Part shown: positions 10,876 through 50,157 of the stretch, in pieces | Layout of the letters: every line of letters starts with the position of its first letter | How positions within the stretch are numbered: position 1 is the stretch's first letter | Assembly (NCBI GenBank): GCA_016933675.1 | Contig: JAFGAM010000100.1 | Coordinates: forward strand, 8,928-72,927 | Direction of reading: 5' to 3' | Length of the DNA: 64,000 bases | From: Candidatus Anaeroferrophillacea bacterium | GTDB taxonomy: Bacteria > Desulfobacterota > Anaeroferrophillalia > Anaeroferrophillales > Anaeroferrophillaceae | Notes under the pieces: generated by a model | Seen by the model: only the letters and a program-made list of their open reading frames with translations | What the model was told of the DNA's origin: nothing | Databases searched by the model: none | Position numbers and translations under genes: made by a program

Positions 10876-12000
10876 ATGACGAACCGTGGTGAACTGGTAA
10901 TTGTCGGCGGCGGCTACGCCGGCCTTGCCTGCCTGCGTACCGCCGCCCGCGGCCTGCCCGCCGGCTGGCGCATCCGCCTCGTCGATGCCGGTTTCCGGCA
11001 CCAGGTCAAGGCCCGCTTCCACGAACGGGTGGCGCGGCCTTCCCGTGACCGGTTGGTGTGGAAGTCCCTTGGTTCCCTGGCGGCGGCTGCCGGCGCCGAA
11101 TGGGTGCAAGATACGGTGATTGAACTTGACCCGGGGCGGCAGTGGGTGGTCGGCCGCCGGGAGACGTATCGCTACGATATCCTGGTGCTGGCGGCCGGCG
11201 CCGGAATCGCGTATTTCGGTATCCCCGGGGCGGCCGAACACGCCATCCATACCCAGGAATACGAATCCGTGGTGCGCGGTTGTCGCCGGGTGCAGGAGCT
11301 GGCCTCCCGGGCGGCGACCGGGGAACGCGTACGGCTGGCGGTCAGTGGCGCCGGGGTCGAGGGGGTAGAGGTGGCGGCTATGGTCCGCCGGGTGTTGCCG
11401 CGGCCGGCGGGGGAGGTGATCCTAACCGCCCGCAGCGCCGATATCCTGCCGCGGGCCGGTATCACCGATGCTCAACGGGCCTACGTGCGCGAGTACTGCC
11501 GGCGGACGGGCATCGAGCTGCAGTTGGATACCGCCGCCACAGCAGTCACCGCCGCCGGGTTGGAAGTTGCTGGTGACTGCCTGGCGGCGGATCTGGTGCT
11601 CTGGTGTGCCGGGGTGCGGCCGCGGGTGCTGCCGGGCATGCCTGACGGCCGCCCGCTGACCGTCAATCGGTTTTTGCAGAGTGAACGCTGGGCTGACGTG
11701 TTTGCCGTCGGCGATGTTGCCGTGGTCGCCGGCGGTACCGGTGACGCCAACCAGGCCAGCGCCCAGCGGGCGGTGTTCCACGGCGACCGGGCGGGGGCCA
11801 ACGTCCGGCGGCTGGTCGCCGGGAAGCCGTTGCGACGGGTAGATTACCATTCTCACGGGGAGTTGATCGCCCTGGGAGATGGCGACGGGGTGGGCATAGT
11901 CGGCGGGGTGCCGCTGTGCGGTCTGAAGGTGGCGCTGCTTAAACGGGTCAACGAATGGCGTTATGCCGCCATGCTGCGGTCCGGCCGCCGCCGCCGCTGA
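10876..12000 (+). CDS. FAD-dependent pyridine nucleotide-disulfide oxidoreductase (type II NADH dehydrogenase-like)
   Basis: LVIVGGGYAGLA first Rossmann, VSGAGVEGVEVAA second Rossmann, and C-terminal VFAVGDVA motif. Confidence 0.75.
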   Translation: MTNRGELVIVGGGYAGLACLRTAARGLPAGWRIRLVDAGFRHQVKARFHERVARPSRDRLVWKSLGSLAAAAGAEWVQDTVIELDPGRQWVVGRRETYRYDILVLAAGAGIAYFGIPGAAEHAIHTQEYESVVRGCRRVQELASRAATGERVRLAVSGAGVEGVEVAAMVRRVLPRPAGEVILTARSADILPRAGITDAQRAYVREYCRRTGIELQLDTAATAVTAAGLEVAGDCLAADLVLWCAGVRPRVLPGMPDGRPLTVNRFLQSERWADVFAVGDVAVVAGGTGDANQASAQRAVFHGDRAGANVRRLVAGKPLRRVDYHSHGELIALGDGDGVGIVGGVPLCGLKVALLKRVNEWRYAAMLRSGRRRR

Positions 12001-38026: not shown

Positions 38027-39360
38027 GTACCGCCCACCACCACCAGCCGTACATCCATGACGTTGGTGTTGGTGGGGCCGGTGATAAGCAGGTCGTCGAG
38101 TTTCGCGAAGAAGTGATAGGCGTCGTTGGCGGCGAGGAAGTCCTCCGGTTTGAGACCCAGTTGCCGCGCCCGTGAGACGGTGTCACCGTCGGCGATGGCG
38201 CCGGCGGCGTTGGTGGGGCCGTCGGTGCCGTCGGTGCCGCCGCTCAGAACCGCCACTCTCGGCAGACCGGCGATATCCAGTGCCGCCGCCAGCACGAACT
38301 CCTGGTTGCGCCCTCCCTTTCCTTTGCCGCGAATTGTCACCGTGGTTTCGCCGCCGCTGATGATGCATGCCGGGGGGGCGGCAGGGTTGCCGCTGACCGT
38401 TGCTTCGCGGGCGATGGCGGCGTGCATCCGGGCGATCTCCCGGGTTTCCCCCTCGATGAAGGTTGAGAGGATAAGCGGTTGGTAGCCGTGCTCCCGGGCC
38501 GCCGCCGCCGCCGCGTCCACCGCCTGGCGGCTACTGGCGACGATGCGGTTGACGACTCGGGCAAAGAGCGGGTCGTCGGGCTTCGGGGTTTCCGGCCGGC
38601 GGCCTGCGGCGCCGGCCTCGATGTGTTCGTACACCGCCGGCGGCAACCGGTCGGCGAGCCGGTATTTCTCGACGATTGCCCGGCAGTCACTGAAGGTCGT
38701 GGGGTCGCCCACCGTCGGCCCCGAGGCGATGCTGGTGAGGGGGTCGCCGATGACATCCGAAAGTACCAGGGTAAGCAGGGTCGCCGGGGCCGCCAATCGT
38801 GCCAGTTGGCCGCCCTTGAGTTGTGAGAGGTGCTTGCGGATGGTGTTGATCTCGGTGATGTCGGCGCCGCATTCCAGCAGCCGGGCAGTGGTCTCCTGCT
38901 TGTCGGCCAGGGTGATGCCGGCGGCGGGCAGGGGCAGGAGGGCGGAGCCGCCGCCGGAGATGAGGCAGATCACCAGATCCCGCTCACCGGCCCGGGACGC
39001 CAGCTCCGCCATCCGCCGGGCGCCCTCGACGCCGGCGGCGTCAGGTACCGGGTGTCCCGCCTCGATCACTGCCACCGTCCGCACCGGCGCCAGGTGACCG
39101 TATTTTACCACCACCACCCCGGCGGTGAGCCGGTCGGCCAGCAGCTTTTCCATTGCTCCGGCCATCGCTGCGCCGGCCTTGCCGCCGCCGATGACGAAGA
39201 TGTTGTCGAAATTCTCCAGGTTCCATTCGTGCCCGCCGCAGACAAGGCGGCTGCCGTCACGCTCGACGTAGCGGTTGATGGCTTCCTCGGGGTCCGCCGC
39301 GCGGACGGCGGCGGTGAAGATGGCGCGGGCGTCCTCCCGCAGGCGGGCAGTAGCGGTCAT
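38023..39360 (-). CDS. glycerate 2-kinase / hydroxypyruvate reductase (DUF4147 + MOFRL family)
   Basis: 445 aa. VIGGGKAGAAMA, LISGGGSALL, IRKHLSQLKGGQLA and LSGGTDGTDGPT are typical of TtuD/GckA-type glycerate kinases. Confidence 0.88.
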   Translation of the reverse strand: MTATARLREDARAIFTAAVRAADPEEAINRYVERDGSRLVCGGHEWNLENFDNIFVIGGGKAGAAMAGAMEKLLADRLTAGVVVVKYGHLAPVRTVAVIEAGHPVPDAAGVEGARRMAELASRAGERDLVICLISGGGSALLPLPAAGITLADKQETTARLLECGADITEINTIRKHLSQLKGGQLARLAAPATLLTLVLSDVIGDPLTSIASGPTVGDPTTFSDCRAIVEKYRLADRLPPAVYEHIEAGAAGRRPETPKPDDPLFARVVNRIVASSRQAVDAAAAAAREHGYQPLILSTFIEGETREIARMHAAIAREATVSGNPAAPPACIISGGETTVTIRGKGKGGRNQEFVLAAALDIAGLPRVAVLSGGTDGTDGPTNAAGAIADGDTVSRARQLGLKPEDFLAANDAYHFFAKLDDLLITGPTNTNVMDVRLVVVGGT

Positions 39361-39651
39361 GACGATGCTCCTTCACCTTGTCTCGACATCCATGCGATAT
39401 CTATGCGATCGGCCGGCATGGCCTCATTCCACACTTTTTATTAACTCGAATTATGAGGTAAAAACAATCGTGAAGTGATGCAAATGTGAGGTTTCTCTTG
39501 AGAAGTCGACAATTCACCTGGTGCGTGCGGGTGCGGTTTCATACCGAGGAAAAATCCGTGCTGGTCGGGGCCGAATCCGCCGCTTTACGGCCGCCCCGAT
39601 ATCGGTTATATTCCGGTGCATCCGCTAACGTTTACGAATAAGGAGTTTGCC

Positions 39652-40422
39652 GTGAAAAGGATGTTTTCATTATCGGTCACGATTTTGCTGCTGTTTGTCT
39701 TTGCTTCCGTGGCCGCCGCCGCGCCCACCGACATCACCGTGCGGGTGCGAAGCAAAGGAGCGAAGTTTATCGGTTCGAGCATGGGTGGGGTACTGATCAC
39801 GATTAAAGATGCCGACACCGGCGAACTGCTGGCCAGAGGGACGGTCGTCGGCGGTACCGGGGATACCGAGTTGATCATGAAACAGGCGCACCGTACCGGC
39901 GAGTCCTATGCCGACACCAAAACCGCCGCGTTCACCGCCACCTTTGACCTCGATGCGCCCCGTTATCTGGAGATCGCCGCCTTCGGCCCCCTGGCCCAGC
40001 GGCAGGCCGCCAACCGTGTCACCCTGACCCAGTGGGTGGTGCCCGGCAAGCATCTCACCGGCGGTGATGCGATGATGCTGGAGATGCCCGGCCTAGTGGT
40101 CGACGTGCAGTCGCCCGCGACGCACATCAAGTTGTCCGGGACGCCGCAAACTGTGAAGATCGAGGCCAATGTGACGATGATGTGCGGCTGCCCCATCGAA
40201 CCTGACGGTCCCTGGGGCGCGGATGACATCGAGGTGCGAGCGCTCATCAGGAGGAACGGCAAAGCATACACCGAAATTTCGCTGGGCTATGCTGGCCGCA
40301 CCAGCCAGTTCGCCGCTGATTTCACCATCACTGAACCCGGGGTTTATGACGGCACGGTATACGGCTACGAGGCCGCCACCGGCAATACCGGGCTGGACCG
40401 GTTTACCGTAGTGGTCAAGTAA
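39652..40422 (+). CDS. secreted protein of unknown function
   Basis: AAGGAG RBS then GTG 39652 (an ATG at 39661 is also possible). Signal peptide MFSLSVTILLLFVFASVAAA. No family recognised. Confidence 0.5.
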   Translation: MKRMFSLSVTILLLFVFASVAAAAPTDITVRVRSKGAKFIGSSMGGVLITIKDADTGELLARGTVVGGTGDTELIMKQAHRTGESYADTKTAAFTATFDLDAPRYLEIAAFGPLAQRQAANRVTLTQWVVPGKHLTGGDAMMLEMPGLVVDVQSPATHIKLSGTPQTVKIEANVTMMCGCPIEPDGPWGADDIEVRALIRRNGKAYTEISLGYAGRTSQFAADFTITEPGVYDGTVYGYEAATGNTGLDRFTVVVK

Positions 40423-40445
40423 GTCATCGGTACCGGGTTTTGCTC

Positions 40446-40475
40446 TTGACAATCCGGTTTTCCGGGGGGTACAAA
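40446..40475 (+). promoter_or_regulatory. promoter candidate of riboswitch A
   Basis: TTGACA-atccggttttccgggggg-TACAAA. The same architecture recurs at 48379-48407. Confidence 0.4.
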
Positions 40476-40508
40476 GACAGGCTAAGAACATAGTAAGAAC
40501 ATAATAGA

Positions 40509-40675
40509 TTCGTTCGGGTGCTGTTTCAGCCTAACAGGGAACCCCGTGCAAACCGGGGACGGGCCCGCCGCTGTAATCGCCGACGAAAACCGCAAGATGC
40601 CACTGGCCGGCGCTGCCGTCCGGGAAGGCGCGGTGAGTAGATTGACGCGAGAGTCAGAAGACCTGCCCGAACGAA
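40509..40675 (+). promoter_or_regulatory. cobalamin (B12) riboswitch A, complete aptamer
   Basis: P1 TTCGTTCGGG/CCCGAACGAA encloses GGGTGC, AGGGAA, CCCGCCGCTGTAA, GCCACTG, GGGAAGGC and the B12 box AGTCAGAAGACCTGCC. Confidence 0.85.
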
Positions 40676-40738
40676 GCGGCTTCTCCCTTGGGTGAGGGAT
40701 GGCGTCGAGGAACTGTGAACGGGGCGTAAAAACGGATG

Positions 40739-40774
40739 CCCCCGTATCGGCTGCGGTCGATACGGGGGTTTTTT
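40739..40774 (+). terminator. intrinsic terminator (expression platform of riboswitch A)
   Basis: CCCCCGTATCG-gctgcggt-CGATACGGGGG followed by TTTTTT. Confidence 0.8.
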
Positions 40775-40854
40775 GTGCCCGGCACCTTGCATGCGCATGG
40801 AAACATCTGTTCCGGTCACTGATGGCGGGCGGTGGCGCGGGCAGCAGAGGAATC

Positions 40855-41700
40855 ATGGACATTGCCGCCGTTTTCCGGTCGCTGGAGCCGTTCCGTCAAC
40901 TGGAAGAAGATCGGCTTGTCGCCATCGTCGCGGGATTTACCCGGCGTTACTACCCGGTGGGTTTGCCGCTTTTCGGGGTCGATGAAGCTATTGCCGAGAT
41001 CGGCCTGGTTACCGCCGGGCAGGTGCGGCTGGAGGTTGCCGTCGGCAGGAATCGGTTCGTGTCTTTTCAGCGCATCGGCAGGGGCGAATTCGTCGGCCTG
41101 GAAAGTGTGCTGCTCGATGGCGGTTCACTGGTAAGAAATTTATCCGAAATTGCCGTCCGGGGATATTTCTGTTCCCGGAAAGATTTTTTCGCTTCACTGG
41201 GATCACTTCCCGATGTCCGGGGGTACTTTATGCGGGAAGCGGCCTCCCGGCTGGAAAAAGCGTTTCAGATCCTCCAGCGGGAGACGGTACCGGGCCCGGC
41301 TGCCGGCGACGCGGTATCGGCCGAACCGGTGCCTCGTGCCGTCGTGCCGCCTGCAGCCGCGTCCCCGGTTGCCCGTGCCCTGCGCTACATCGAGCAACGC
41401 TTCGCGCAGCCCATCGCACTTGACGAGATCGCCCGGGTCAACGCCATGAGCAAATCCCATTTCTCCCGGGTATTCAAGGTGGAAACCGGCTGCACCTTCA
41501 AGCGCTACCTGAACTGCCGGCGTATCGAGGCAGCAAAGGAACTGCTTTCCCGACGCGGGATGACGATAACTGAAGTCGCCATGGAGGTGGGCTTCAACGA
41601 CTTTGCCTATTTCAGCCGCACGTTTCACCGTTGTGCGGGGATGACGCCGTCCGAGTACCGGAAAACCCGCGCCGGCATGCCCCCGGCGTGGCAGACGTGA
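40855..41700 (+). CDS. transcriptional regulator: cNMP-binding-like (Crp-type) sensor domain + AraC-family HTH
   Basis: 281 aa from ATG 40855 (AGAGG RBS). The N-terminus FRSLEPFRQLEEDRLVAIVAGFTRRYYPVGLPLF...IGRGEFVGLESVL is Crp-domain-like. C-terminal AraC motifs are MSKSHFSRVFK and VGFNDFAYFSRTFHRCAGMTPSEYR. Confidence 0.8.
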   Translation: MDIAAVFRSLEPFRQLEEDRLVAIVAGFTRRYYPVGLPLFGVDEAIAEIGLVTAGQVRLEVAVGRNRFVSFQRIGRGEFVGLESVLLDGGSLVRNLSEIAVRGYFCSRKDFFASLGSLPDVRGYFMREAASRLEKAFQILQRETVPGPAAGDAVSAEPVPRAVVPPAAASPVARALRYIEQRFAQPIALDEIARVNAMSKSHFSRVFKVETGCTFKRYLNCRRIEAAKELLSRRGMTITEVAMEVGFNDFAYFSRTFHRCAGMTPSEYRKTRAGMPPAWQT

Positions 41701-41868
41701 AACAATCGCCGGCGCCGAGGGGCGTACCGGGAGGCGCGCCGGTGCCGAAACGGTGGACGGCTCCGGCCGGCCGCATGATTATGGTAATTTTGTTATAGTT
41801 TTTGGCAAACAACTCCAAGTATCAATATTTTTTTTGCGGTATACATGGCATCGTTCTCCATCATGAGA

Positions 41869-42036
41869 GGAACAGGAAAAGGGAATGCGGTGAAATTCCG
41901 CAACTGCCCCGCAACTGTAAATCCCGGTTGTCCGATCACGGACAATCAGTGCCGCGGCCAGGAATGCCACTGCTTCCTCATGGATGAGGCGGGAAGGCGG
42001 TCGCGGTCGGGAAAGTCAGGAAACCTTGCCTGTTCG
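41869..42036 (+). promoter_or_regulatory. cobalamin (B12) riboswitch B, canonical
   Basis: P1 GGAACAGG/CCTGTTC. AGGGAATGCGGTGAAATTCCGCAACTGCCCCGCAACTGTAA, GCCACTG, GGGAAGGC and the B12 box AGTCAGGAAACCTTGCC. Confidence 0.88.
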
Positions 42037-42532
42037 GTATGTTGTCGGGCTCTGTCGAGGGGCGGAGTGGCGATGAAGGTGCCGGCCGAATAACCGGGAG
42101 ATCCCCCGGTCGACCAAAGGCGCATTTCATTCTCTTCTCCTTCCCGATACGCAACATTCCGTCACATTCGTTTTCCGGCGGCTGCCGGAAATCCTCTCCC
42201 GAAAGTGGTGCCGGCAGTGCCGGCGCCGCAACCAGCGGACAAAGCCACACCCCGAGTGATCGGGGGCCGGAAAGCCATCGGGTCTCCACATTCCATGAGA
42301 CGGCCGGGTTGCCTACTGAAACATACGTACGGCGGCCCGGCCTTTTTTCCCGGGCCCGGAGCAGGGGAGGTGATGCCGGGCGCAAAGACGGTGCAGGGAT
42401 GTGGCGATGTGCGGGCGTACGGAGACTGGATACTGGATTGGAGCTTTGATCAGCGGACGCGAGAGCGCTGCCGCCCGCCGGGAACAGCAGGCGAAGCAAA
42501 GTGAAGAGGAAAGATAAAGGAGGTTTGTCATT

Positions 42533-43339
42533 ATGAAACGCAGTTTGTTGTTTGGCTGGATCATGATCGGGGTCGTATCCGCGTGGCTGCTTCCGGGCAG
42601 TGAAGCCCTGGCGGGATACTATGCCCCGGCGGCCGGTCAGGCCGGCTCGACCGCTATCTATATGAATGATGCCGCTTTTGTCGGCTGGGCCACCGGCTGG
42701 GAGGATTACAATGTCGGTAGCAACGTCGATGCCGGATGGCGGACGCCGGACAAGGCCCTCGGCAAGGCCATAGGGAGTTCTTATGATATCGTCTGTCTCG
42801 GCCGGGGTGGCTCGATTACGATGACCTTTGCCGACCCAATTGCCAACGGCAGCGGTGATGATTTTGCCGTCTTCGAGAACAGCTTCAACGATACCTTCCT
42901 CGAACTGGCCTATGTCGAGGTTTCCTCCAACGGGACGGATTTCTTCCGTTTCGCCAACGATTCCCAGACCGCAAGCGCGGTTGGCGGGTTCGGAGCGGTC
43001 GATCCGACGAATATCGGCGGTCTCGGTAGTAAATACAGACAGGGTTACGGCACGCCGTTCGACCTGGCCAGCCTGGCCGGTGTCAGTCCTCTGCTTGATT
43101 TAAACAATATCGGCTATGTGCGACTGGTCGATATCGTCGGTGACGGAACCTATTTTGATACCAGCGGTGATGTCATCTACGATCCCTATCCCACGGTCGG
43201 TTCCGCCGGTTTCGATCTGGATGCCGTCGGCGTGCTCAACAATGCCTCTCCGGTGCCGATTCCCAGTGCCGTCTGGCTGCTGGGCTCCGGTCTGGCGGGG
43301 CTGGTCGGAATTAGCCGCAAACGCGGGAACAGAGCATAA
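42533..43339 (+). CDS. secreted protein with unassigned ~200-aa domain and exosortase-type (VPxP/PEP-CTERM-like) C-terminal anchor
   Basis: AAGGAGG RBS and a signal peptide. Domain shared with 46475-48316 ([70 protein letters not shown]). Tail is [29 protein letters not shown]. Confidence 0.75.
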
Positions 43340-43390
43340 ATACGCCTCGCGGCGGATTACATTTAAACCTAATGATATTGGGAGGAAAGC

Positions 43391-44215
43391 ATGAAACGTT
43401 TCACCCTTAAAATTGCTTGCGCCATGGCGCTGCTGCTGCTGCTGACGCCGTCGCTTTACGCGGCCACGGCGACCTTCGATGATTTTGCCCTCGCTCCGGA
43501 GTCTCATTACGGCGGTGCCGGTTCAGGCGCAACCGGGTTTTCCGACGGCGGCGCCTTTTTCGAGCATAACTCCTCTGACTGGGCCTGGAACGGCTGGAGC
43601 TATTCCAATCACACCGATACCACTACCGCGGGGTATACCAACCAGTTTTCCGCCATTACCGGCGGCGGTGCCGGCGGAACGGCCAATTATGCCGTGGCCT
43701 ATGTCCCTACAGATTGGGCGGGCGGATCCTATGCTTCGCTCCCGATATCGATCATGCTGGATGATACCAGCGGCTCGTCATTGTCCGGCATGTACATCAC
43801 CAACACCACCTACGCCTACCTGTCCATGACCGGTGGCGATCAGTTCGGTAAAACCTTCGGCGGTGATACGGGAAATGATGCCGACTGGTTCAAGATGACC
43901 TACCAGGGAATCAGGTCCGACGGCTCTTTAACCGCTGCCTATGATTTTTATCTTGCCGACTATCGCTTCGCTGACAACTCTCAAGACTATATCATCGACG
44001 ACTGGACCTGGCTGAATCTCTCAGGTCTGGGCAATGGTCTCAAGGGTATCCAGTTTACCATGGCATCGTCGGATACCGGAGATTGGGGTATGAACACCCC
44101 CGCATATTTTGCCATCGACAACTTCAACGGTTCACCCGTCCCGATTCCCGGCGCCGTCTGGCTGCTGGGTTCCGGGCTGGCGGGGCTGGTCGGCCTGCGC
44201 CGGCGGCGTTTCTGA
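43391..44215 (+). CDS. DUF4465-like protein with exosortase-type C-terminal anchor
   Basis: Signal peptide. ATFDDFALAPESHY...NGWSYSNHTDTTTAGYTNQFSA...ANYAVAY...YITNTTYAYLSM..GDQFGK...FYLADY...WTWLNLSGLG...GMNTPAYFAIDNF matches my recollection of DUF4465. Tail is [26 protein letters not shown]. Confidence 0.75.
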   Translation: MKRFTLKIACAMALLLLLTPSLYAATATFDDFALAPESHYGGAGSGATGFSDGGAFFEHNSSDWAWNGWSYSNHTDTTTAGYTNQFSAITGGGAGGTANYAVAYVPTDWAGGSYASLPISIMLDDTSGSSLSGMYITNTTYAYLSMTGGDQFGKTFGGDTGNDADWFKMTYQGIRSDGSLTAAYDFYLADYRFADNSQDYIIDDWTWLNLSGLGNGLKGIQFTMASSDTGDWGMNTPAYFAIDNFNGSPVPIPGAVWLLGSGLAGLVGLRRRRF

Positions 44216-44480
44216 AACCTGGCCGCGACTGCTGTTTGACCACGGCCAGGTAACGGGATCACACCACATTAATTAAAAACAACGGCATTGATTTGACCGG
44301 GGCGGTGGTTCGTTTTTTGCGGATTGCCGCCCCGGTATGATGGCTTCGTGGTAAGAACGCCATTTTCATTCGTTGTATTGTCGATCGGGTTGTTCAGCGT
44401 ACGGCTGCGCGCACCACACGCCACAGTTTGTGCGCGCCTGGAATGAATTTCCAGCATTTACGGAAGAAAAATCAGCCTTG

Positions 44481-46418
44481 ATGAAAAAAACCGTTTGCTG
44501 GGTGCTGGTTCTCTGCTTGAGCTGGTTCGGGGTCGCGGCCGCCGAAACCACGGTGACAAACCAGACCTTGCCGCGCTTCCAGATGGATGAGATGGTGGTG
44601 ACCGCCGGGCGGGACGTGGAGCGGATCATCAACGTGCCCGCCAATGTCACCGTGATCAGCGCCGAGGACATCGAGAAATCCACCGCTACCACGATTACCG
44701 ATCTTCTCGCCGCCGAAGGGGGGCTGGTACGGCGGGGGTTTCTCGGCAACGACAAGAAGGCGGGCGTCGATATCCGCGGCATGGGCGAAACCAGCGTCAG
44801 CAGTGTCCTGGTGCTGGTCGACGGGGTGCGGATCAACCCGGCCGACATGGCCGGTCCCGATTTCAGCAGCCTGGCTCTGGACCAGGTGGAACGCATCGAG
44901 ATTCTGCGTGGTTCCGGCTCGGTGCTCTACGGCAACGGGGCCGTGGGCGGGGTGATCAACATTATTACCCGTCCCGAAGGCGGTCCGCCGGGCGGTATGG
45001 TGCGGCTGGAACGGGGGCGCTACGGGGCGGAAAAGGCGACCGTGCAGGCGCGCGGTACGGCCGGTGATTTCCGTTTCGCGGTTCTCGGGAACTACGCCTG
45101 CGAGGACGGTTACCGGGAGAACGGCGATCTGACCAACCGCAACCTCGATGCCCGGGCGGCGTGGGATATCGGCACCCGGCTGACCCTCTCGGGCGAGATG
45201 CGGTATCACCGGGACCATTACGGCTTTCCCGGCCCCCTGACCGAATCACAGTTCGAAGAAGACCCCCGGCAGAGCCTGGATGATACCGGCAGCGACGGTG
45301 ACACGGAAGAAGAGGCATATGTCGCCGGTCTGGACGGTTTTTTCGGGGCGTATGGCGACCTGTCGGTCAAGTTTACCGCCCGGGAGCGGGAGAACCGCTG
45401 GGTCATGCTCAGGTCGCCCGGTGAAATCCGCGAGCGCAGCCGGGATCTCAACCTGAAACACCGCCTCGAACATGACTTTACCGGCTGGCTGCAGAGCGAA
45501 CTGATTGCCGGGATTGATTACCGGGAAGCGGATTATCATCAGGTAACCTCGTTCGCGGTCAAGCCCTACGATCTCGACAGCGCCGGCTGGTATGCCCTTG
45601 AAAAAATCACCCTCTTCGACCACTGGATCATCCAGGCCGGCTACCGCCGCACCGATTTCACCTATGACGTCAGGAAGACCGACGCCGGCGAAACCTGGCA
45701 TTCGAATGATGTTACCCTCGGCATTGTGCGCCGCTTCTCCTGCGGCGACTTCCTTTCCGGCAGCCTGTTCGCCAATTACGCCACCAGCTTCCGGGTGCCC
45801 GATGTCGACGAACTGGGATTCGCCACCGACGATATCCGGCCCCAGGACGGCGAGCATCGTGACGCCGGGGTGAAACTCCGCTTCCGGAATCGCGCCGAGC
45901 TGATGCTGACCTGGTTTGATACCCGTATCGAGGATGAGATCTGGTTCGATGCCTTCAACTACATCAACACCAATTACGATCATCCGACGCGAAGAACCGG
46001 GCTGGAAACGAGCTTCCGGCTCTTTCTGCCGGCCGCGCTGCGCTGCTGGGGGAGTCATACCTATACCAAAGCGCGCTTCGAAGGCATCGATTACAAGGTG
46101 CCCACGGTGCCGCGGCACAAGCTGGTTCTGGGGTTGAATTGGGCGCCCCTGGAATGGCTGGAGGTGGGGGCGACCTACGACCGCGTGGGATCACGCCCCC
46201 AGGGCGGTGATCCCACCGTGGGCAGCCGGTATAAGGACATGCCGTCCTACGAGGTGGTGAACTGCAAGGTGACCGCCAGATACGAGCCGTACAACCTGAA
46301 GGTGTTCGTTGCGCTTACCAACCTCTTCAATGAACACTATTACAGTCTTTCGTATTACGATAACGTCTATCCGTCGCCGGGCCTCGGGGCGCGTCTCGGC
46401 CTCGAGTGGCGGATATAG
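44481..46418 (+). CDS. TonB-dependent receptor, BtuB-like size and context
   Basis: 645 aa from ATG 44481. Signal peptide, TonB box DEMVVTA, plug (NVTVISAEDIEKSTATTITDLL...VLVDGVRIN...IEILRGSGSVLYGNGAVGGVINIIT), and a beta-barrel to the C-terminus. Confidence 0.88.
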   Translation: MKKTVCWVLVLCLSWFGVAAAETTVTNQTLPRFQMDEMVVTAGRDVERIINVPANVTVISAEDIEKSTATTITDLLAAEGGLVRRGFLGNDKKAGVDIRGMGETSVSSVLVLVDGVRINPADMAGPDFSSLALDQVERIEILRGSGSVLYGNGAVGGVINIITRPEGGPPGGMVRLERGRYGAEKATVQARGTAGDFRFAVLGNYACEDGYRENGDLTNRNLDARAAWDIGTRLTLSGEMRYHRDHYGFPGPLTESQFEEDPRQSLDDTGSDGDTEEEAYVAGLDGFFGAYGDLSVKFTARERENRWVMLRSPGEIRERSRDLNLKHRLEHDFTGWLQSELIAGIDYREADYHQVTSFAVKPYDLDSAGWYALEKITLFDHWIIQAGYRRTDFTYDVRKTDAGETWHSNDVTLGIVRRFSCGDFLSGSLFANYATSFRVPDVDELGFATDDIRPQDGEHRDAGVKLRFRNRAELMLTWFDTRIEDEIWFDAFNYINTNYDHPTRRTGLETSFRLFLPAALRCWGSHTYTKARFEGIDYKVPTVPRHKLVLGLNWAPLEWLEVGATYDRVGSRPQGGDPTVGSRYKDMPSYEVVNCKVTARYEPYNLKVFVALTNLFNEHYYSLSYYDNVYPSPGLGARLGLEWRI

Positions 46419-46474
46419 ACAGAGCTTGATGAACCGGCATCTTGAACATCATTAACATGCGGGGAGAATAATTG

Positions 46475-48316
46475 ATGAAAGTAGCGATGGTGCGCAAACT
46501 TATGGTAAATATTATTCTTTTTCTTTCATTGCTGCTGGCCGGTGCCGCGCCGGTGTTCGCGGCCTACGGCGACCATGCCGGCCTATATGGTGAGAATGAC
46601 GGGATTCATGGCGGCAACCGCCTGGATCCGGGGGCTTACCCGAGCATGGATTCGCGTATCAAGGGCTGGGCCACCGAAGTGGTGAACTCGTGGCGTCCCG
46701 ATGCCGCCACTTTCGGTTCCCCGACCGATGTGCTCGGCCAGCCGGGCGGTACCTTCGACGTATTTTCGCTTGGCGATGGCGGCAGTATCACGGTGACCTT
46801 CCCGGTACCCATCGGCCGGGGTGACGGACCCGATTTCGCGGTCTGGGAAAATGGTTTTGTCTCCGTGCAGGGAGGTGAAACGGGGATGCTGTTCGCCGAA
46901 CTGTGTTATGTGGAGGTTTCCTCCGACGGCGTGCATTTTGTCCGTTTTCCCAGTGTGAACGGCAGTCCCGATTCCCTGGGCGGCTTCGACTGCATCGATC
47001 CGACCTACTATCACAATCTTGCCGGCAAGCATCCCAACGGCAACGACGGCCGCGATGAGGGCACGCCGTTCGAACTGAATGTTCTTGCCAACGACCCTGA
47101 GGTACTGAACGGAAATGTCGATCTCGACAATATTCTCTATGTCAGACTGATCGACCTGGTCGGCGACGGCTCGACCTTCGATTCTCTGGGCAATCCCATA
47201 TACGATCCGTATCCCACCCCCTTCGGCACCGGCGGCTGCGATGTCGACGCGGTGGGGGTTTTGAATCAGGGCGGGATCAACCAGCCGCCTGATCAGCCGA
47301 CGCCTGTAGCTCCGGAGGATGGCGCGGCCGAGGTGACCTTGCCGGTAGTCTTGTCAAGTTCCGCTTTCAGCGATCCGGATATTGATTCAGAACATGGGTC
47401 AACCCAGTGGCAGGTCAGTGTGAGTGCCGGCTTCGAAACAACGGTTTTCGATAGCACAAGTGCGACCGAGCTGATCGATATTACCCTGGATGACTCCGAT
47501 CTCAACGACGGTATCACCTACTACTGGCGGGCGCGGCATTACGACGATGACGGCGCCGCATCGGCCTGGTCGGCGACATCCAGCTTCACCACCGCGGCGG
47601 CGGTGATTCCGAATTCGGCGCCGAATCAGCCGAGCCTGAGCGCCCCGGCAAACGGTGCGACGGATATCTCTATGCCGGTGACTTTGTCAACCTCGGTCTT
47701 CAGCGATCCGGATGTTGATTCAGAACATGGGTCAACCCAGTGGCAGGTGAGCGAAAGTTCCGGTTTCGGTACGACGGCGTACGATGCAACGAGCAGTGAA
47801 CATCTGACCGCCTTGACACTCGACAATACCTTCCTGCTGGCGGATACGACCTATTACTGGCGGGCGCGTCATTACGACGATGACGGTGTAGCATCGGCCT
47901 GGTCGGCGACATCCAGCTTCACCACCATTGTCGGCGGCAACAGCCAGGCCTGGCCGGAGAATCCGCTGGTGCCGGTGGTCTGGCCCGCCCAGGTGGACCC
48001 GTTGACCACCCCGGTTCAGGTGGGTGCCTGCCCCGATGTTACGGTGCGGCCGTCGCTGCAGGTGTCGGCCGCCGATGTCGGCAAAACGGCGACGCTGATC
48101 ATGTATATCTATTTTCCTGATTACGGCTTCGGGATCAGTATGCGTTCCGCGTCGAAGAAACTGACAACCGAAACCGTTTTCGACCTGATCCCGACCGAAC
48201 TTGATCTCAGCGATGTCGGGAGGTACTCGTTCCACATCTACTACGGCTATATGGTCGGTTCAGATATCATCTACAGCGCCTACGCGCTGACGGTGGGTGA
48301 TGCCTGTGGTAATTGA
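46475..48316 (+). CDS. large secreted multidomain protein: paralog of the 42533 domain + two FN3-like 111-aa repeats + unique C-terminal domain
   Basis: GGGGAG RBS and a signal peptide. [70 protein letters not shown]. Then 2x (SDPD[IV][12 protein letters not shown]...[24 protein letters not shown]). Confidence 0.75.
47261..47926 (+). repeat. intragenic tandem duplication, 2 x 333 bp (FN3-like modules)
   Basis: Unit ends (ttcaccacc) lie at 47593 and 47926. Long near-identical stretches include ttcagcgatccggat.ttgattcagaacatgggtcaacccagtggcaggt and tactactggcgggcgcg.cattacgacgatgacgg. Confidence 0.8.
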
Positions 48317-48378
48317 CGAACCTCTTCGGGGTTGCCGCGAGCACGGTGTGTGCCGTGCCCGGCGGTACCCTTTTACCC

Positions 48379-48407
48379 TTGATAACCCGGTTTCCTGAGG
48401 GTAAACG
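48379..48407 (+). promoter_or_regulatory. promoter candidate of riboswitch-like element C (paralog of 40446-40475)
   Basis: TTGATA-acccggtttcctgaggg-TAAACG. Confidence 0.35.
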
Positions 48408-48430
48408 GGTGAAAAACGAATTATGAACAA

Positions 48431-48519
48431 TTCGTTCGGGTGCTATTTCAGCCTGACAGGGAACCCCGTGCAAGTCGGGGGCGGGTCACTGAATCGCAAC
48501 CGGGGCGATAAAACGGATG
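48431..48519 (+). promoter_or_regulatory. truncated cobalamin-riboswitch paralog C (5' half only; B12 box and 3' P1 strand missing)
   Basis: TTCGTTCGGGTGCTATTTCAGCCTGACAGGGAACCCCGTGCAAGTCGGGG is about 92% identical to the start of riboswitch A. It then jumps to AACCGGGGCGATAAAACGGATGCC, which matches the pre-terminator segment of A. There is no AGTCAG..CCTGCC box and no CCCGAACGAA. Confidence 0.55.
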
Positions 48520-48554
48520 CCCCATACCGGCGGATGCCGGTATGGGGCTTTTTT
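48520..48554 (+). terminator. intrinsic terminator following element C
   Basis: CCCCATACCGGC-ggat-GCCGGTATGGGG followed by CTTTTTT. Confidence 0.8.
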
Positions 48555-49068
48555 ACCCGTAACGCGATGTTAATCCGCTGCCGGCATGATTTATGGAACC
48601 GTAACAACCGCCGCTGAAGTTTAGCGCTTACACGTTTCCCATGCCCCGCATGAGACATCGGGGTTGAAAGCTCATTGAAAAAAGAAGATTGTCTAAGCTA
48701 CGCTGCTTTTTCCAATTCTGGCGGCTGTTTGTCTCTCGCCAAGCCTTTACTCGGCCCGAATTTTCCTGATTTCGGGTTCCAGAGAGAGCGAATGTCGACC
48801 TGTGCAAAAATCCGTTGCAGGCCCAGCCGCAGCCGCCCGGCGGTAATCGGATGACCTCCCCGCCAAGGGGCCAGATTTGCCAGCTCATGCAGAGGAAGGT
48901 TTTGATCCTTCTTCCAGGGCCGCGCAAAATTGCCGCAGTGTCAAGCACTTTTTTAACATTTTTTGCTTCGACAACTTTTTTTCAAAGAGCGCAGGTGAGG
49001 CCAAGGTGAGCGTGCTCACGAAGTGCTCAGAACTCTAAACTTCAGAACCGCCGGAATACGCTGAAAAG

Positions 49069-49233
49069 AGATGGCACGGGAGGGTCGATTCGCGAATCGC
49101 CCCTCCAAATTCACGGCGCTTTTAATGAAGCGTACATGGAGGTGCGGCGAATGACTCAACTTGCAGCGCCTGTCTGCGTGCGGCACGCACAGGCAGGCAA
49201 CGAAGAAGATGGAGTTGTCGCGAAGCCATCATG
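49069..49233 (+). repeat. interspersed structured repeat, copy 2 (longest)
   Basis: GATGGCACGGGAGGGTCGATTCGCGAATCGCCCCTCC...GAAGCGTACATGGAGGTGCGG...GCAGCGCCTGTCTGCGTGCGGCACGCACAGGCAGGCAACGAAGAAGATGGAGTTGTCGCGAAGCCATCATG. Confidence 0.7.
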
Positions 49234-49234
49234 A

Positions 49235-49263
49235 TTGACACCGCGTTGTGCCCCTGTTATAGT
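49235..49263 (+). promoter_or_regulatory. sigma70-type promoter of the TonB2-type energizer operon
   Basis: TTGACA (49235-49240), 17 nt, TATAGT (49258-49263), about 110 nt upstream of ATG 49372. Confidence 0.5.
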
Positions 49264-49371
49264 GAGGAAACCGCTCACGAAGAGCGGATACCCCGCCTGA
49301 AGCAACGGGCAGAAGCCCAGCCTTGATCTGATGTTCATTTTATCCCGTTATTCACTTGTTTACCGTCGAGG

Positions 49372-50157
49372 ATGCTGCCGATGAGGATTCCTCTCCATCT
49401 GTTCCTGTGCCTGTTCTGCCTGGCGATGGTGCTGCCGCCTGCTGTGGTCCGGGCTGCAACGGTGCCGGTGGATGCCGCCGGCGACACGGTGAATCGCACT
49501 GTCGCCGAGCAGGAAAAACGTCAGCGCGAGGTTTCCGCCTGGGAGGAAGAGCGCCGCGAACTGCTGGAAACCCGTCACGAACTGGAGCAGCGGCTCGAAC
49601 TGCTGCGCTTCCGTTGCGCGAAGTACGAGGGCTATACCGACCGGCGGCGGCAGACCATCGCCGAGCTGGAGGCGGGTATCGCCGCCCAGCGGCAGATTGC
49701 CGACGAGCTGGAGCCGCTGCTGGATGAAACCCTGGCGAAAACCCGGATGTTTGCTGCCGCCGATCTGCCGTTTCTCGTCGACGAGCGGGAGAACCGGTTT
49801 CTCCAGATCGCCGAGCTGCTGGATAGCTACGATGCCTCGCTGGCGGAGAAGCTTCGCCGGGTGCTGGAGATGCTGCACATCGAGGCGCGATACGGCCAGG
49901 GGGTCGAGGCCTATGACGCCCGGCTGCCGGTGGGCGGCGGCGAGGCCGCGGTCAAGGTGCTGCGGGTGGGACGCGTTGGGCTGTATTACCTGACCCTCGA
50001 CGGCACCGCGGCCGGCTGGTACAATCCTGCCGCCGGGGTCTGGGAGCCGCTTTCCGGCGGATCCCGCGACGCTGTGCGCGAGGCGTTGCGAATGGCGATG
50101 AAGCAGCGCGCGGTGGATCTCGTCACCCTGCCGGTGGCGGCAGGAGGGCGGCCATGA
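49372..50157 (+). CDS. DUF3450-domain protein (TtpB-like component of TonB2-type systems)
   Basis: Signal peptide then a long coiled coil, with a C-terminal LRVGRVGLYYLTLDG...GWYNPAAGVWEPL pattern. First gene of the ExbB/ExbD/TonB cluster. Confidence 0.75.
   Translation: MLPMRIPLHLFLCLFCLAMVLPPAVVRAATVPVDAAGDTVNRTVAEQEKRQREVSAWEEERRELLETRHELEQRLELLRFRCAKYEGYTDRRRQTIAELEAGIAAQRQIADELEPLLDETLAKTRMFAAADLPFLVDERENRFLQIAELLDSYDASLAEKLRRVLEMLHIEARYGQGVEAYDARLPVGGGEAAVKVLRVGRVGLYYLTLDGTAAGWYNPAAGVWEPLSGGSRDAVREALRMAMKQRAVDLVTLPVAAGGRP

What the first reader, a model, noticed from the sequence alone, without database searches (positions are those of the whole stretch)
48379..48554. Duplicate of the riboswitch-A promoter and 5' aptamer half with the ligand-binding 3' half deleted, retaining a strong terminator
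Seen in the sequence:
- 48379-48490 is a close paralog of 40446-40560, with the same promoter architecture and about 92% identity over TTCGTTCGGGTGCT.TTTCAGCCT.ACAGGGAACCCCGTGCAA..CGGGG.
- The sequence then joins directly to AACCGGGGCGATAAAACGGATGCC plus a 12-bp-stem/U6 terminator. These match the pre-terminator segment and terminator position of element A.
- About 150 nt present in A are absent here. The missing part carries GCCACTG, GGGAAGGC, the B12 box and the 3' P1 strand.
- Downstream lies about 500 nt of AT-rich ORF-poor DNA, a repeat copy, and then the promoter of the TonB2-type operon.

Inference, three options:
- (a) A riboswitch fossil left after the energizer operon lost B12 control.
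- (b) A constitutively terminated short RNA of about 150 nt.
- (c) A minimal variant aptamer. This seems unlikely to me because the core B12 box is missing.
Basis: partly seen in the sequence, partly recalled or inferred. Interest (0 to 1): 0.6.

Follow-up and report, generated by a model that had tools for sequence, protein, structure and literature searches.

The report
Broken copy of a B12 riboswitch
This is an internally deleted, almost certainly non-sensing duplicate of a neighbouring vitamin-B12 riboswitch leader; it keeps only a promoter-like region, the front half of the sensor and a strong terminator, so it is an evolutionary relic, not a new kind of switch.

Summary
Element B (48363-48554) is a paralogue of the cobalamin riboswitch leader A (40428-40775).

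- **Identity to A:** promoter and leader 76%, P1-P3 half of the aptamer 91% (51/56), platform plus terminator 77%. No homology remains after the T-tract.
- **What is missing:** about 140 nt, comprising P4-P6, GCCACUG, GGGAAGGC, the B12 box and the 3' P1 strand.
- **Rfam score:** B scores 11-17 bits on RF00174 (cut-off 31.5). A scores 115 bits.
- **Distribution:** B is confined to this genome. Every hit of its 5' half in 40 relatives lies inside a complete riboswitch.
- **Relatives and homologous loci:** 15 relatives' DUF3450/TonB2 loci and two homologous B12 loci readable past that gene have no riboswitch at this position.
- **TonB2 operon:** it has its own -35 box, shared across the order. 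Two nested repeat/MITE-like insertions separate it from B.

Best reading: a relic of a lineage-specific leader duplication. Its 13-bp/U6 terminator kept perfect pairing through two compensatory swaps and now most likely ends the upstream B12-uptake operon.

The scan has already found comparable relics of S-box and fluoride riboswitches in other genomes. Interest is low to moderate.

The parts
40428..40775 (+). Element A, the reference copy: promoter (-35 TTGACA 40446-40451), complete cobalamin riboswitch aptamer (40499-40684), platform and intrinsic terminator (40738-40775), followed by an AraC-family regulator gene (40816-41700).
   Evidence: RF00174 115.3 bits, full model 1-189; terminator scan; Pfam HTH_18/HTH_AraC.
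48363..48429 (+). B: promoter-like region and 5' leader. It has -35 TTGATA at 48379-48384, a 17-nt spacer and -10 TAAACG at 48402-48407; the inferred start is near 48415.
   Evidence: 76% identity to A 40428-40507, and 25/29 from the -35 to the -10 box. Relatives' riboswitch leaders of this class have the same TTGACA-17-TAnnnn layout. Not detected by the strict sigma-70 scan. Activity is untested.
48430..48485 (+). B: retained 5' aptamer half, comprising the P1 5' strand (UUCGUUCGGG), P2, the GGGAA core and the P3 hairpin.
   Evidence: 51/56 identical to A 40508-40563. Aligns to RF00174 model positions about 1-75. B-specific changes break one P2 pair (G to A gives A.C) and alter the conserved AA before GGGAA (UAAC to UGAC).
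48486..48499 (+). B: degraded J3/4 remnant (UCACUGAAUCGCAA) and the deletion junction.
   Evidence: 10/14 aligned identities plus 5 gap columns against A 40564-40582. About 137 nt of A (about 40579-40715) have no counterpart.
48500..48518 (+). B: platform segment CCGGGGCGAUAAAACGGAU. Its GGGGC can pair either with GCCCC of the terminator 5' arm (antiterminator-like hairpin, -9.6 kcal/mol) or with the free P1 5' strand.
   Evidence: 21/23 identical to A 40720-40742; prefix folds.
48519..48554 (+). B: intrinsic terminator with a 13-bp perfect stem, GGAU loop and U6.
   Evidence: Terminator scan; -29.5 kcal/mol. Compared with A's stem there are two fully compensatory pair swaps (T-A to C-G, G-C to A-T) and two G.U to G-C changes (read). 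It is the only strong + strand terminator between the 614-aa gene (stop at 48316) and the TonB2-type operon.
48587..48613 (+). Left part of a copy of the abundant genome-wide repeat (box ATGGAACCGTAACAACCGCCG), ending in the target-site copy AACCGCCG at 48606-48613.
   Evidence: Pattern and BLAST against the genome.
48614..49045 (.). 432-bp low-GC MITE-like insertion. It has 11-bp terminal inverted repeats (CTGAAGTTTAG / CTAAACTTCAG) and an 8-bp target-site duplication AACCGCCG (48606-13 and 49046-53).
   Evidence: The right end is shared with C53:56067-56191 (87.5%) and C74:48649-48716 (95.7%), and homology stops at the same CTTCAG boundary with different flanks.
49046..49232 (+). Right part of the same copy of the abundant repeat, abutting the TonB2-type promoter.
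   Evidence: About 90 BLAST HSPs genome-wide.
49235..49263 (+). The TonB2-type operon's own promoter (TTGACA-17-TATAGT), 109 nt before the DUF3450 gene at 49372.
   Evidence: Promoter scan 11/12. The -35 box aligns with (CC)GGTTGAC(A/T) in 7 of 8 relatives of two families.

Best explanation
B is a non-sensing relic of a cobalamin riboswitch leader.

**Origin (inferred).** In this lineage the promoter-to-terminator cassette of leader A, or of their common ancestor, was duplicated within a lower-GC B12-uptake block. Both copies were kept long enough for their spacers to diverge. B then lost about 140 nt in an internal deletion that removed P4-P6, the B12 box and the 3' P1 strand.

**What B can no longer do.** Without those parts it cannot form the cobalamin pocket or close P1.

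**What it most likely does now.**
- The 13-bp/U6 terminator forms by default.
- Its most likely present role is structural. It ends transcription of the upstream B12-uptake operon (42533-48316) and insulates the TonB2-type operon, which uses its own ancestral promoter.
- If B's own promoter still fires, it makes a constitutively terminated RNA of about 140 nt with no sensing function.

**Shown versus inferred.**
- Shown: the paralogy, the deletion, the failure of the covariance model, the intact terminator, and the absence of B from relatives.
- Inferred: the order of events, terminator use by the upstream operon, and promoter activity.
For: - **Paralogy and deletion.** Segment identities are 76%, 91%, 71% and 77%, with about 143 nt missing. 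Homology stops at the T-tract.
- **Not an aptamer.** RF00174 gives 11.3 bits (E=3.4), or 17 bits in truncated mode, against a cut-off of 31.5; A gives 115.3 bits. No displaced 3' half lies within 48300-49400.
- **Relaxed constraint on the remnant.** One P2 pair is broken, the conserved AA is changed and J3/4 is scrambled. The stability of the 5' domain is not unusual (z = -1.56).
- **Terminator kept.** The stem has 13 perfect pairs despite 77% identity to A, through two compensatory swaps. It is the only strong + strand terminator after the operon. The full-length minimum-energy fold has the terminator formed.
- **Lineage-specific.**
  - Only A and B exist in the genome.
  - The junction pattern is found in 1 of 27 genomes of the order.
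  - All 5'-half hits in 40 relatives lie inside full RF00174 matches.
- **No riboswitch at this position elsewhere.** None follows the gene in the two homologous B12 loci that can be read past it (L041, L043); L042 ends 11 nt after the gene, so it gives no evidence on this. None lies next to the operon in 15 TonB2 loci.
- **Native TonB2 promoter.** Its -35 box aligns across the order.
Against: - Promoter activity, terminator use and the existence of a short RNA are therefore all untested.
- The retained modules (core promoter 25/29, 5' half 51/56, perfect terminator) are better conserved than the spacers. This could also mean that the truncated element itself is under selection. With so few sites the difference is not significant: about 3 B-lineage changes in 56 nt against about 7 expected.
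- There is a single genome and no conspecific or congeneric sequences, so neither the age of the deletion nor purifying selection on B can be measured.
Confidence: 0.7

Rival explanations
1. B is a riboswitch-derived small RNA. Its retained promoter drives a constitutively terminated RNA of about 140 nt (a 5' irregular hairpin, then an A-rich linker, then the terminator hairpin with a U-tail). This RNA would have a trans function, for example mimicking the terminated A leader, pairing with the 3' P1 strand of A, or titrating a protein.
For: - The promoter layout is conserved with A and with the clade's riboswitch leaders.
- The two-hairpin-plus-U-tail architecture is typical of sRNAs.
- Functional modules are better conserved than spacers.
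- Terminated riboswitch leaders can act in trans: SreA/SreB and Rli55 in Listeria (reviews PMC5449094, PMC8079631), and a SAM-I leader in Desulfovibrio (bioRxiv 10.1101/803072).
Against: - The 5' domain fold is not more stable than shuffles (z = -1.56).
- It is not conserved in any of 40 relatives.
- B-specific substitutions look like decay.
- No target and no expression evidence are available.
Confidence: 0.12
2. B is a fossil of B12 control over the TonB2-type energizer operon. A full-length B once gated read-through into the DUF3450-ExbB-ExbD-TonB operon. Control was lost when the aptamer was deleted and mobile repeats were inserted.
For: - B is the last element before that operon and lies on the same strand.
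- Once the 432-bp insertion and the interspersed repeat are removed, B's terminator lies only about 35 nt from the operon's promoter.
- A TonB energizer is functionally linked to BtuB-type uptake (established knowledge).
Against: - None of 15 relatives' DUF3450 loci has a cobalamin riboswitch next to the operon.
- The operon's own -35 box is shared across the order and in several relatives abuts a divergent gene.
- B belongs to a lower-GC block (0.55-0.61) whose regulator and 614-aa genes lack orthologues in the order, apart from partial matches to the 614-aa gene in G003. The TonB2 operon has native GC of 0.65-0.69.
Confidence: 0.12
3. B is a minimal or variant cobalamin aptamer that still senses a corrinoid or another ligand.
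For: Only that the P1 5' strand, P2, the GGGAA core and P3 are retained, and that a P1-like closing helix (UCGUUC/GGGGCGA) appears in the minimum-energy fold.
Against: - Far below the RF00174 cut-off, with no better hit in the clan.
- The B12 box, P4-P6 and the 3' P1 strand are absent.
- The closing helix is not statistically supported.
- It is unique to one genome.
Confidence: 0.02
4. B is an assembly artefact of a metagenome-assembled genome, for example a chimeric join or a collapsed repeat.
For: The genome is a 146-contig MAG, 87% complete. Reads could not be inspected.
Against: - B differs from A by 9-24% in every segment, so it cannot be built from A's reads.
- Both flanks are unique and continuous with intact genes.
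Confidence: 0.03

Closest known systems
Cobalamin riboswitch (Rfam RF00174); specifically the adjacent leader A at 40499-40684 and the same leader class in related genomes
   Same: - Homologous promoter, P1 5' strand, P2, GGGAA core, P3 hairpin, platform segment (GGGGCG-A-rich-CGGAUGCCCC) and intrinsic terminator.
- Same strand and same B12-uptake neighbourhood.
   Different: - Lacks P4-P6, GCCACUG, GGGAAGGC, the B12 box and the 3' P1 strand.
- Scores 11-17 bits against a 31.5 cut-off.
- No gene follows within 800 nt.
- It cannot be filed as a functional member.
Internally deleted or degenerate riboswitch relics noted earlier by this scan (S-box remnant before metF, e1-2206608; degenerate fluoride riboswitch, e1-984233)
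   Same: One internal deletion or decay removes the ligand-binding core while the terminator module survives, and the relic is confined to one lineage.
   Different: A different riboswitch class. Here the relic is a duplicate at the end of an operon, not in the leader of a surviving gene.
Riboswitch leaders that act as small RNAs after termination (Listeria SreA/SreB; AdoCbl-riboswitch RNAs Rli55/EutX)
   Same: A short RNA made of a riboswitch 5' part plus an intrinsic terminator, with its own promoter.
   Different: Those keep a complete, ligand-responsive aptamer and have demonstrated targets. B has no sensor and no evidence of expression or of a target.

Membership tests
Cobalamin riboswitch (RF00174) | Covariance-model score at or above the gathering threshold (31.5 bits) | tested here: not met
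   11.3 bits (E=3.4) in a 1.1-kb search and 17.0 bits in 3'-truncated mode in a 156-nt search. A scores 115.3 bits.
Cobalamin riboswitch (RF00174) | B12 box and the J6/3-P6 core (GCCACUG ... GGGAAGGC ... AGUCAGAAGACCUGCC) | tested here: not met
   Absent from 48430-48554 on direct reading. No second partial Cobalamin hit in 48300-49400.
Cobalamin riboswitch (RF00174) | P1 helix closed by a 3' strand complementary to the 5' strand | tested here: not met
   The CCCGAACGAA equivalent is missing. A surrogate helix UCGUUC/GGGGCGA appears only in the minimum-energy fold and is not significant (z = -1.56).
Cobalamin riboswitch (RF00174) | 5' half: P2, GGGAA core and P3 hairpin | tested here: met
   51/56 identical to A and aligned to model positions about 1-75. 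One P2 pair and one conserved A are altered.
Cobalamin riboswitch (RF00174) | Lies in the 5' leader of a B12-related gene that it controls | tested here: not met
   The next gene starts 818 nt downstream, behind two nested insertions and its own promoter.
Cobalamin riboswitch (RF00174) | Binds a cobalamin | not testable with these tools
   Needs in-line probing or ITC.
Rho-independent (intrinsic) terminator | GC-rich hairpin immediately followed by a U-tract | tested here: met
   13 bp with 10 G-C pairs, a 4-nt loop and T6; -29.5 kcal/mol.
Riboswitch-derived / terminated-leader sRNA | A discrete transcript from its own promoter, with a trans target | not testable with these tools
Only a promoter-like layout is seen.

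The most novel reading that the evidence does not exclude
The truncated leader is not dead. Its conserved promoter makes a constitutive RNA of about 140 nt that mimics the prematurely terminated A leader but is uncoupled from B12. It would act in trans, for example on the A leader's 3' P1 strand or on a shared protein partner. It might share an operator with A's promoter and so be under the AraC-type regulator that A gates. That would be an example of a riboswitch turned into an sRNA by duplication and loss of its sensor.
Probability: 0.1. Interest if true: 0.6.

Novelty: new member of a known kind. Interest (0 to 1): 0.25.

Why it matters
- **A clean example of riboswitch birth and death inside one locus.** A promoter-to-terminator leader cassette was duplicated, then lost its sensor in a single internal deletion, while its terminator stayed useful.
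- **Annotation.** A half-aptamer should not be called a B12 riboswitch, and the TonB2-type operon here should not be assigned to the B12 regulon.
- **Limits.** It opens no new mechanism unless the short RNA proves to be expressed and functional.

Tried and rejected
2. **Closer relatives.** Scans of genome contigs and metagenome contigs with the DUF3450 protein gave only hits of 55-57% identity. The exact-protein look-up found nothing.
3. **A B-like truncated element in relatives.** None was found. The junction pattern occurs only in G000 among the 27 genomes of the order, and all 5'-half hits lie inside full riboswitches. The 27-nt hit in G006:C311 is an unrelated A-rich stretch.
4. **A displaced 3' aptamer half or a gene remnant after B.** None was found:
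   - no Rfam hit;
   - no Pfam hit for the small ORFs;
   - tblastx shows only repeat DNA;
   - there is no homology to A beyond the T-tract.
5. **A riboswitch upstream of the TonB2 operon in relatives.** None in 15 loci.
6. **A riboswitch after the homologue of the 614-aa gene in homologous B12 loci from metagenomes.**
   - None on that strand in L041 or L043.
   - L043 has a convergent riboswitch-exosortase pair.
   - L042 ends 11 nt after the gene, so it cannot be judged.
7. **Orthologues of A's regulator or of the 614-aa gene in the order.** Essentially none were found. G003:C92 has a similar two-riboswitch arrangement but runs off its contig.
8. **New selected structure in B's 5' domain.** Not supported (z = -1.56).
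9. **Exact deletion breakpoints.** They are ambiguous. B's AACCGGGGCGAUAAAACGG resembles both A's platform (best match) and the clade consensus for the P4 5' strand.

Full report
**What is in the sequence**

Rfam finds three riboswitches in the window:
- a complete cobalamin riboswitch A at 40499-40684 (115.3 bits);
- a second cobalamin riboswitch at 41829-42046 (74.1 bits);
- a c-di-GMP-I riboswitch at 42234-42316 (48.7 bits).

The gene layout is as follows.
- A has its own terminator (40738-40775) and precedes an AraC-family regulator gene (40816-41700; Pfam).
- The second riboswitch and the c-di-GMP element precede an operon at 42533-48316. Its products are:
  - a 268-aa protein;
  - a DUF4465 protein;
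  - a TonB-dependent receptor;
  - a 614-aa Ig-domain protein.
- The element in question, B, starts 47 nt after that operon's stop codon.
- A DUF3450/ExbB/ExbB/ExbD (TonB2-type) operon starts at 49372.

**Check of the observation**

Identities between A and B by segment:

| Segment | A | B | Identity |
|---|---|---|---|
| Promoter and 5' leader | 40423-40507 | 48345-48429 | 76% over 72 aligned columns, 26 gap columns |
| P1-P3 half of the aptamer | 40508-40563 | 48430-48485 | 51/56 (91%) |
| J3/4 remnant | 40564-40582 | 48486-48499 | 71%, with a 5-nt loss |
| Platform plus terminator | 40712-40780 | 48494-48560 | 49/64 (77%), T-tracts in register |

- Against the whole 2.68-Mb assembly the match has E=3.6e-17, and A and B are the only copies.
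- Homology stops at the T-tract and starts just after the stop codon of the gene upstream of A. The duplicated unit is therefore exactly a promoter-to-terminator leader cassette.
- About 143 nt of A have no counterpart in B. They contain P4-P6, GCCACUG, GGGAAGGC, the B12 box and the 3' P1 strand.
- The terminator stem has 13 perfect pairs, a GGAU loop and T6.

**Is B an aptamer?**

No.
- RF00174 gives 11.3 bits (E=3.4) in a 1.1-kb search. In a 156-nt search, in 3'-truncated mode, it gives 17 bits. The cut-off is 31.5.
- No other member of the cobalamin clan does better, because only the best clan hit is kept.
- No displaced 3' half lies within 48300-49400.
- The B-specific substitutions in the retained half look like decay. 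One breaks a P2 pair (GCUG/CAGC in A, GCUA/CAGC in B), and one changes the conserved AA before GGGAA (UAAC to UGAC).
- The 5' domain folds into an irregular hairpin closed by UCGUUC/GGGGCGA, but it is no more stable than shuffled sequences (z = -1.56).
- The z-score of -3.56 for the whole element is due to the terminator.

**The terminator module**

- B keeps A's platform segment (CGGGGCG-A-rich-CGGAUGCCCC; 21/23 identical). It can form a small antiterminator-like hairpin: -9.6 kcal/mol in B and -12.5 in A.
- The terminator hairpins are far more stable: -29.5 kcal/mol in B and -28.7 in A.
- In B the free P1 5' strand can also sequester GGGGC. All full-length folds have the terminator formed.
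- Compared with A's stem, B's stem has two fully compensatory pair swaps (T-A to C-G, G-C to A-T) and two G.U to G-C changes (read). The hairpin was therefore maintained after the copies diverged.
- It is the only strong + strand terminator between the 614-aa gene and the next operon.

**Comparison with relatives**

- The order holds only 27 species genomes, and the genus only this one.
- B's junction pattern is found only in this genome.
- Every hit of B's 5' half in 40 relatives falls inside a complete RF00174 match.
- Relatives have a leader class like A. It has a -35 TTGACA, a 17-nt spacer and a TAnnnn -10. The P1-P3 sequence is very similar, and the platform is GGAUAAAAAAGGGAAAUCCCC followed by a terminator.
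- These leaders sit in front of varied genes and never before an AraC regulator: a btuC-like permease, a CobI-like methyltransferase, a TonB-dependent receptor, and a 100-aa protein.
- A and B share extra similarity around and upstream of the -35 box that relatives lack. They are therefore lineage-specific paralogues.
- In the L3 loop B keeps the clade-typical GUC while A has ACC. Both copies have thus changed since the duplication, which means the duplication is not very recent.

**Was B the switch of the TonB2-type operon?**

There is no support for this.
- None of 15 relatives' DUF3450 loci has a cobalamin riboswitch next to the operon. The only hit is about 14 kb upstream in G002, before a receptor gene.
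- The operon's own -35 box (CCGGTTGACA) aligns in 7 of 8 relatives from both families. In several of them it abuts a divergent gene.
- The region from about 39000 to 49200 has GC of 0.55-0.61, against 0.65-0.69 on both sides.
- Its regulator has no orthologue in the order. The 614-aa gene has none either, apart from partial matches in G003.
- Homologous B12 loci exist in metagenome contigs.
  - L041 has the same riboswitch-AraC-riboswitch-operon layout.
  - Neither L041 nor L043 has a riboswitch after the homologue of the 614-aa gene on that strand.
  - L043 has a convergent riboswitch-exosortase pair.
  - L042 ends 11 nt after the gene and so is uninformative.
- B therefore belongs to the lower-GC B12 block, and the TonB2 operon is native. 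What a full-length B once controlled is unknown. The DNA after it holds no gene remnant.

**What lies between B and the TonB2 promoter**

- Thirty-three nucleotides after B's T-tract a copy of a very abundant interspersed repeat begins (about 90 BLAST HSPs genome-wide).
- That copy (48587-48613 plus 49046-49232) is split by a 432-bp, 51%-GC insertion at 48614-49045.
- The insertion has 11-bp terminal inverted repeats (CTGAAGTTTAG/CTAAACTTCAG) and an 8-bp target-site duplication, AACCGCCG.
- Its right end recurs on contigs C53 and C74. There the homology stops at the same boundary and the flanks differ.

**Interpretation**

- The best-supported reading (about 0.7) is a relic. A duplicated cobalamin leader was functional for some time, then lost its sensor in one internal deletion. 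Its terminator now serves as the 3' end of the B12-uptake operon and as an insulator before the TonB2 operon.
- The retained modules are better conserved than the spacers. This fits a recent deletion in a previously functional switch. It would also fit selection on a riboswitch-derived short RNA (about 0.12).
- With about 3 B-lineage changes in 56 nt against about 7 expected, the data cannot separate these two readings.
- A variant aptamer (0.02) and an assembly artefact (0.03) are unlikely.

**Limits**

- No conspecific or congeneric genomes were available.

**Context**

- This scan has already reported internally deleted or degenerate S-box and fluoride riboswitches in other genomes.
- Terminated riboswitch leaders acting in trans are known from Listeria (PMC5449094, PMC8079631) and have been reported for Desulfovibrio (bioRxiv 10.1101/803072).
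- B is a further example of a known kind of evolutionary debris and is of low to moderate interest.

Noticed in passing
window 48614-49045 (flanks 48606-48613 and 49046-49053): A 432-bp low-GC (51%) MITE-like element with 11-bp terminal inverted repeats CTGAAGTTTAG/CTAAACTTCAG and an 8-bp target-site duplication AACCGCCG, inserted into a copy of the abundant repeat. Its right end recurs at C53:56067-56191 and C74:48649-48716 (the latter upstream of another cobalamin riboswitch), with different flanks. An internal piece recurs at C52:9012-9084.
   Followed up: partly
window 48587-48613 + 49046-49232; about 90 HSPs genome-wide (also about 36760 in the window): A very abundant interspersed repeat of about 200 nt: a 5' box GATGGAACCGTAACAACTGCC, then GGGATGGCACCGTAAC, and a 3' end GAAGATGGAGTTGTCGCGAAGCCATCAT. 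In many copies a start codon or promoter follows within a few dozen nucleotides, so it may be a leader or cis-regulatory element and not mere debris. Already noted by the scan (e1-2773587).
   Followed up: partly
window 41829-42046 and 42234-42316: A cobalamin riboswitch and a c-di-GMP-I riboswitch sit in series in one leader before the receptor operon. The homologous metagenome locus L041 instead has two cobalamin riboswitches in tandem (1317-1528 and 1649-1835).
   Followed up: no
loci L004-L012, L019 (relatives) and window 40446-40775: The order shares a conserved class of cobalamin leader in front of unrelated B12 genes. It has a -35 TTGACA, a 17-nt spacer and a TAnnnn -10, a near-identical P1-P3, an extra hairpin after P1, and the platform GGAUAAAAAAGGGAAAUCCCCGGG followed by a terminator.
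   Followed up: partly
window 39000-49200: A block of about 10 kb has lower GC (0.55-0.61 against 0.65-0.69 on both sides). It holds riboswitch A, the AraC regulator and the B12-uptake operon. The regulator has no orthologue in the 26 other genomes of the order, and the 614-aa gene has only partial matches in G003. This is consistent with horizontal acquisition.
   Followed up: partly
window 49225-49240 and loci L023-L034: The -35 region (CC)GGTTGAC(A/T) of the DUF3450/TonB2-type operon aligns in 7 of 8 relatives from two families, an unusually well-kept promoter element.
   Followed up: no
L043 9746-11393: In a homologous B12 locus from a metagenome, a cobalamin riboswitch (11186-11393, minus strand) precedes an exosortase (EpsH) gene that is convergent with the homologue of the 614-aa gene. 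B12 may therefore control the sorting enzyme for the PEP-CTERM surface proteins of these loci.
   Followed up: no
window 40577-40601 and 40723-40741: Within leader A, the P4 5' region (CGACGAAAACCGCAAGAUGCC) and the platform (GGCGUAAAAACGGAUGCC) resemble each other. This may have favoured the internal deletion seen in B, and it makes the breakpoints ambiguous.
   Followed up: no
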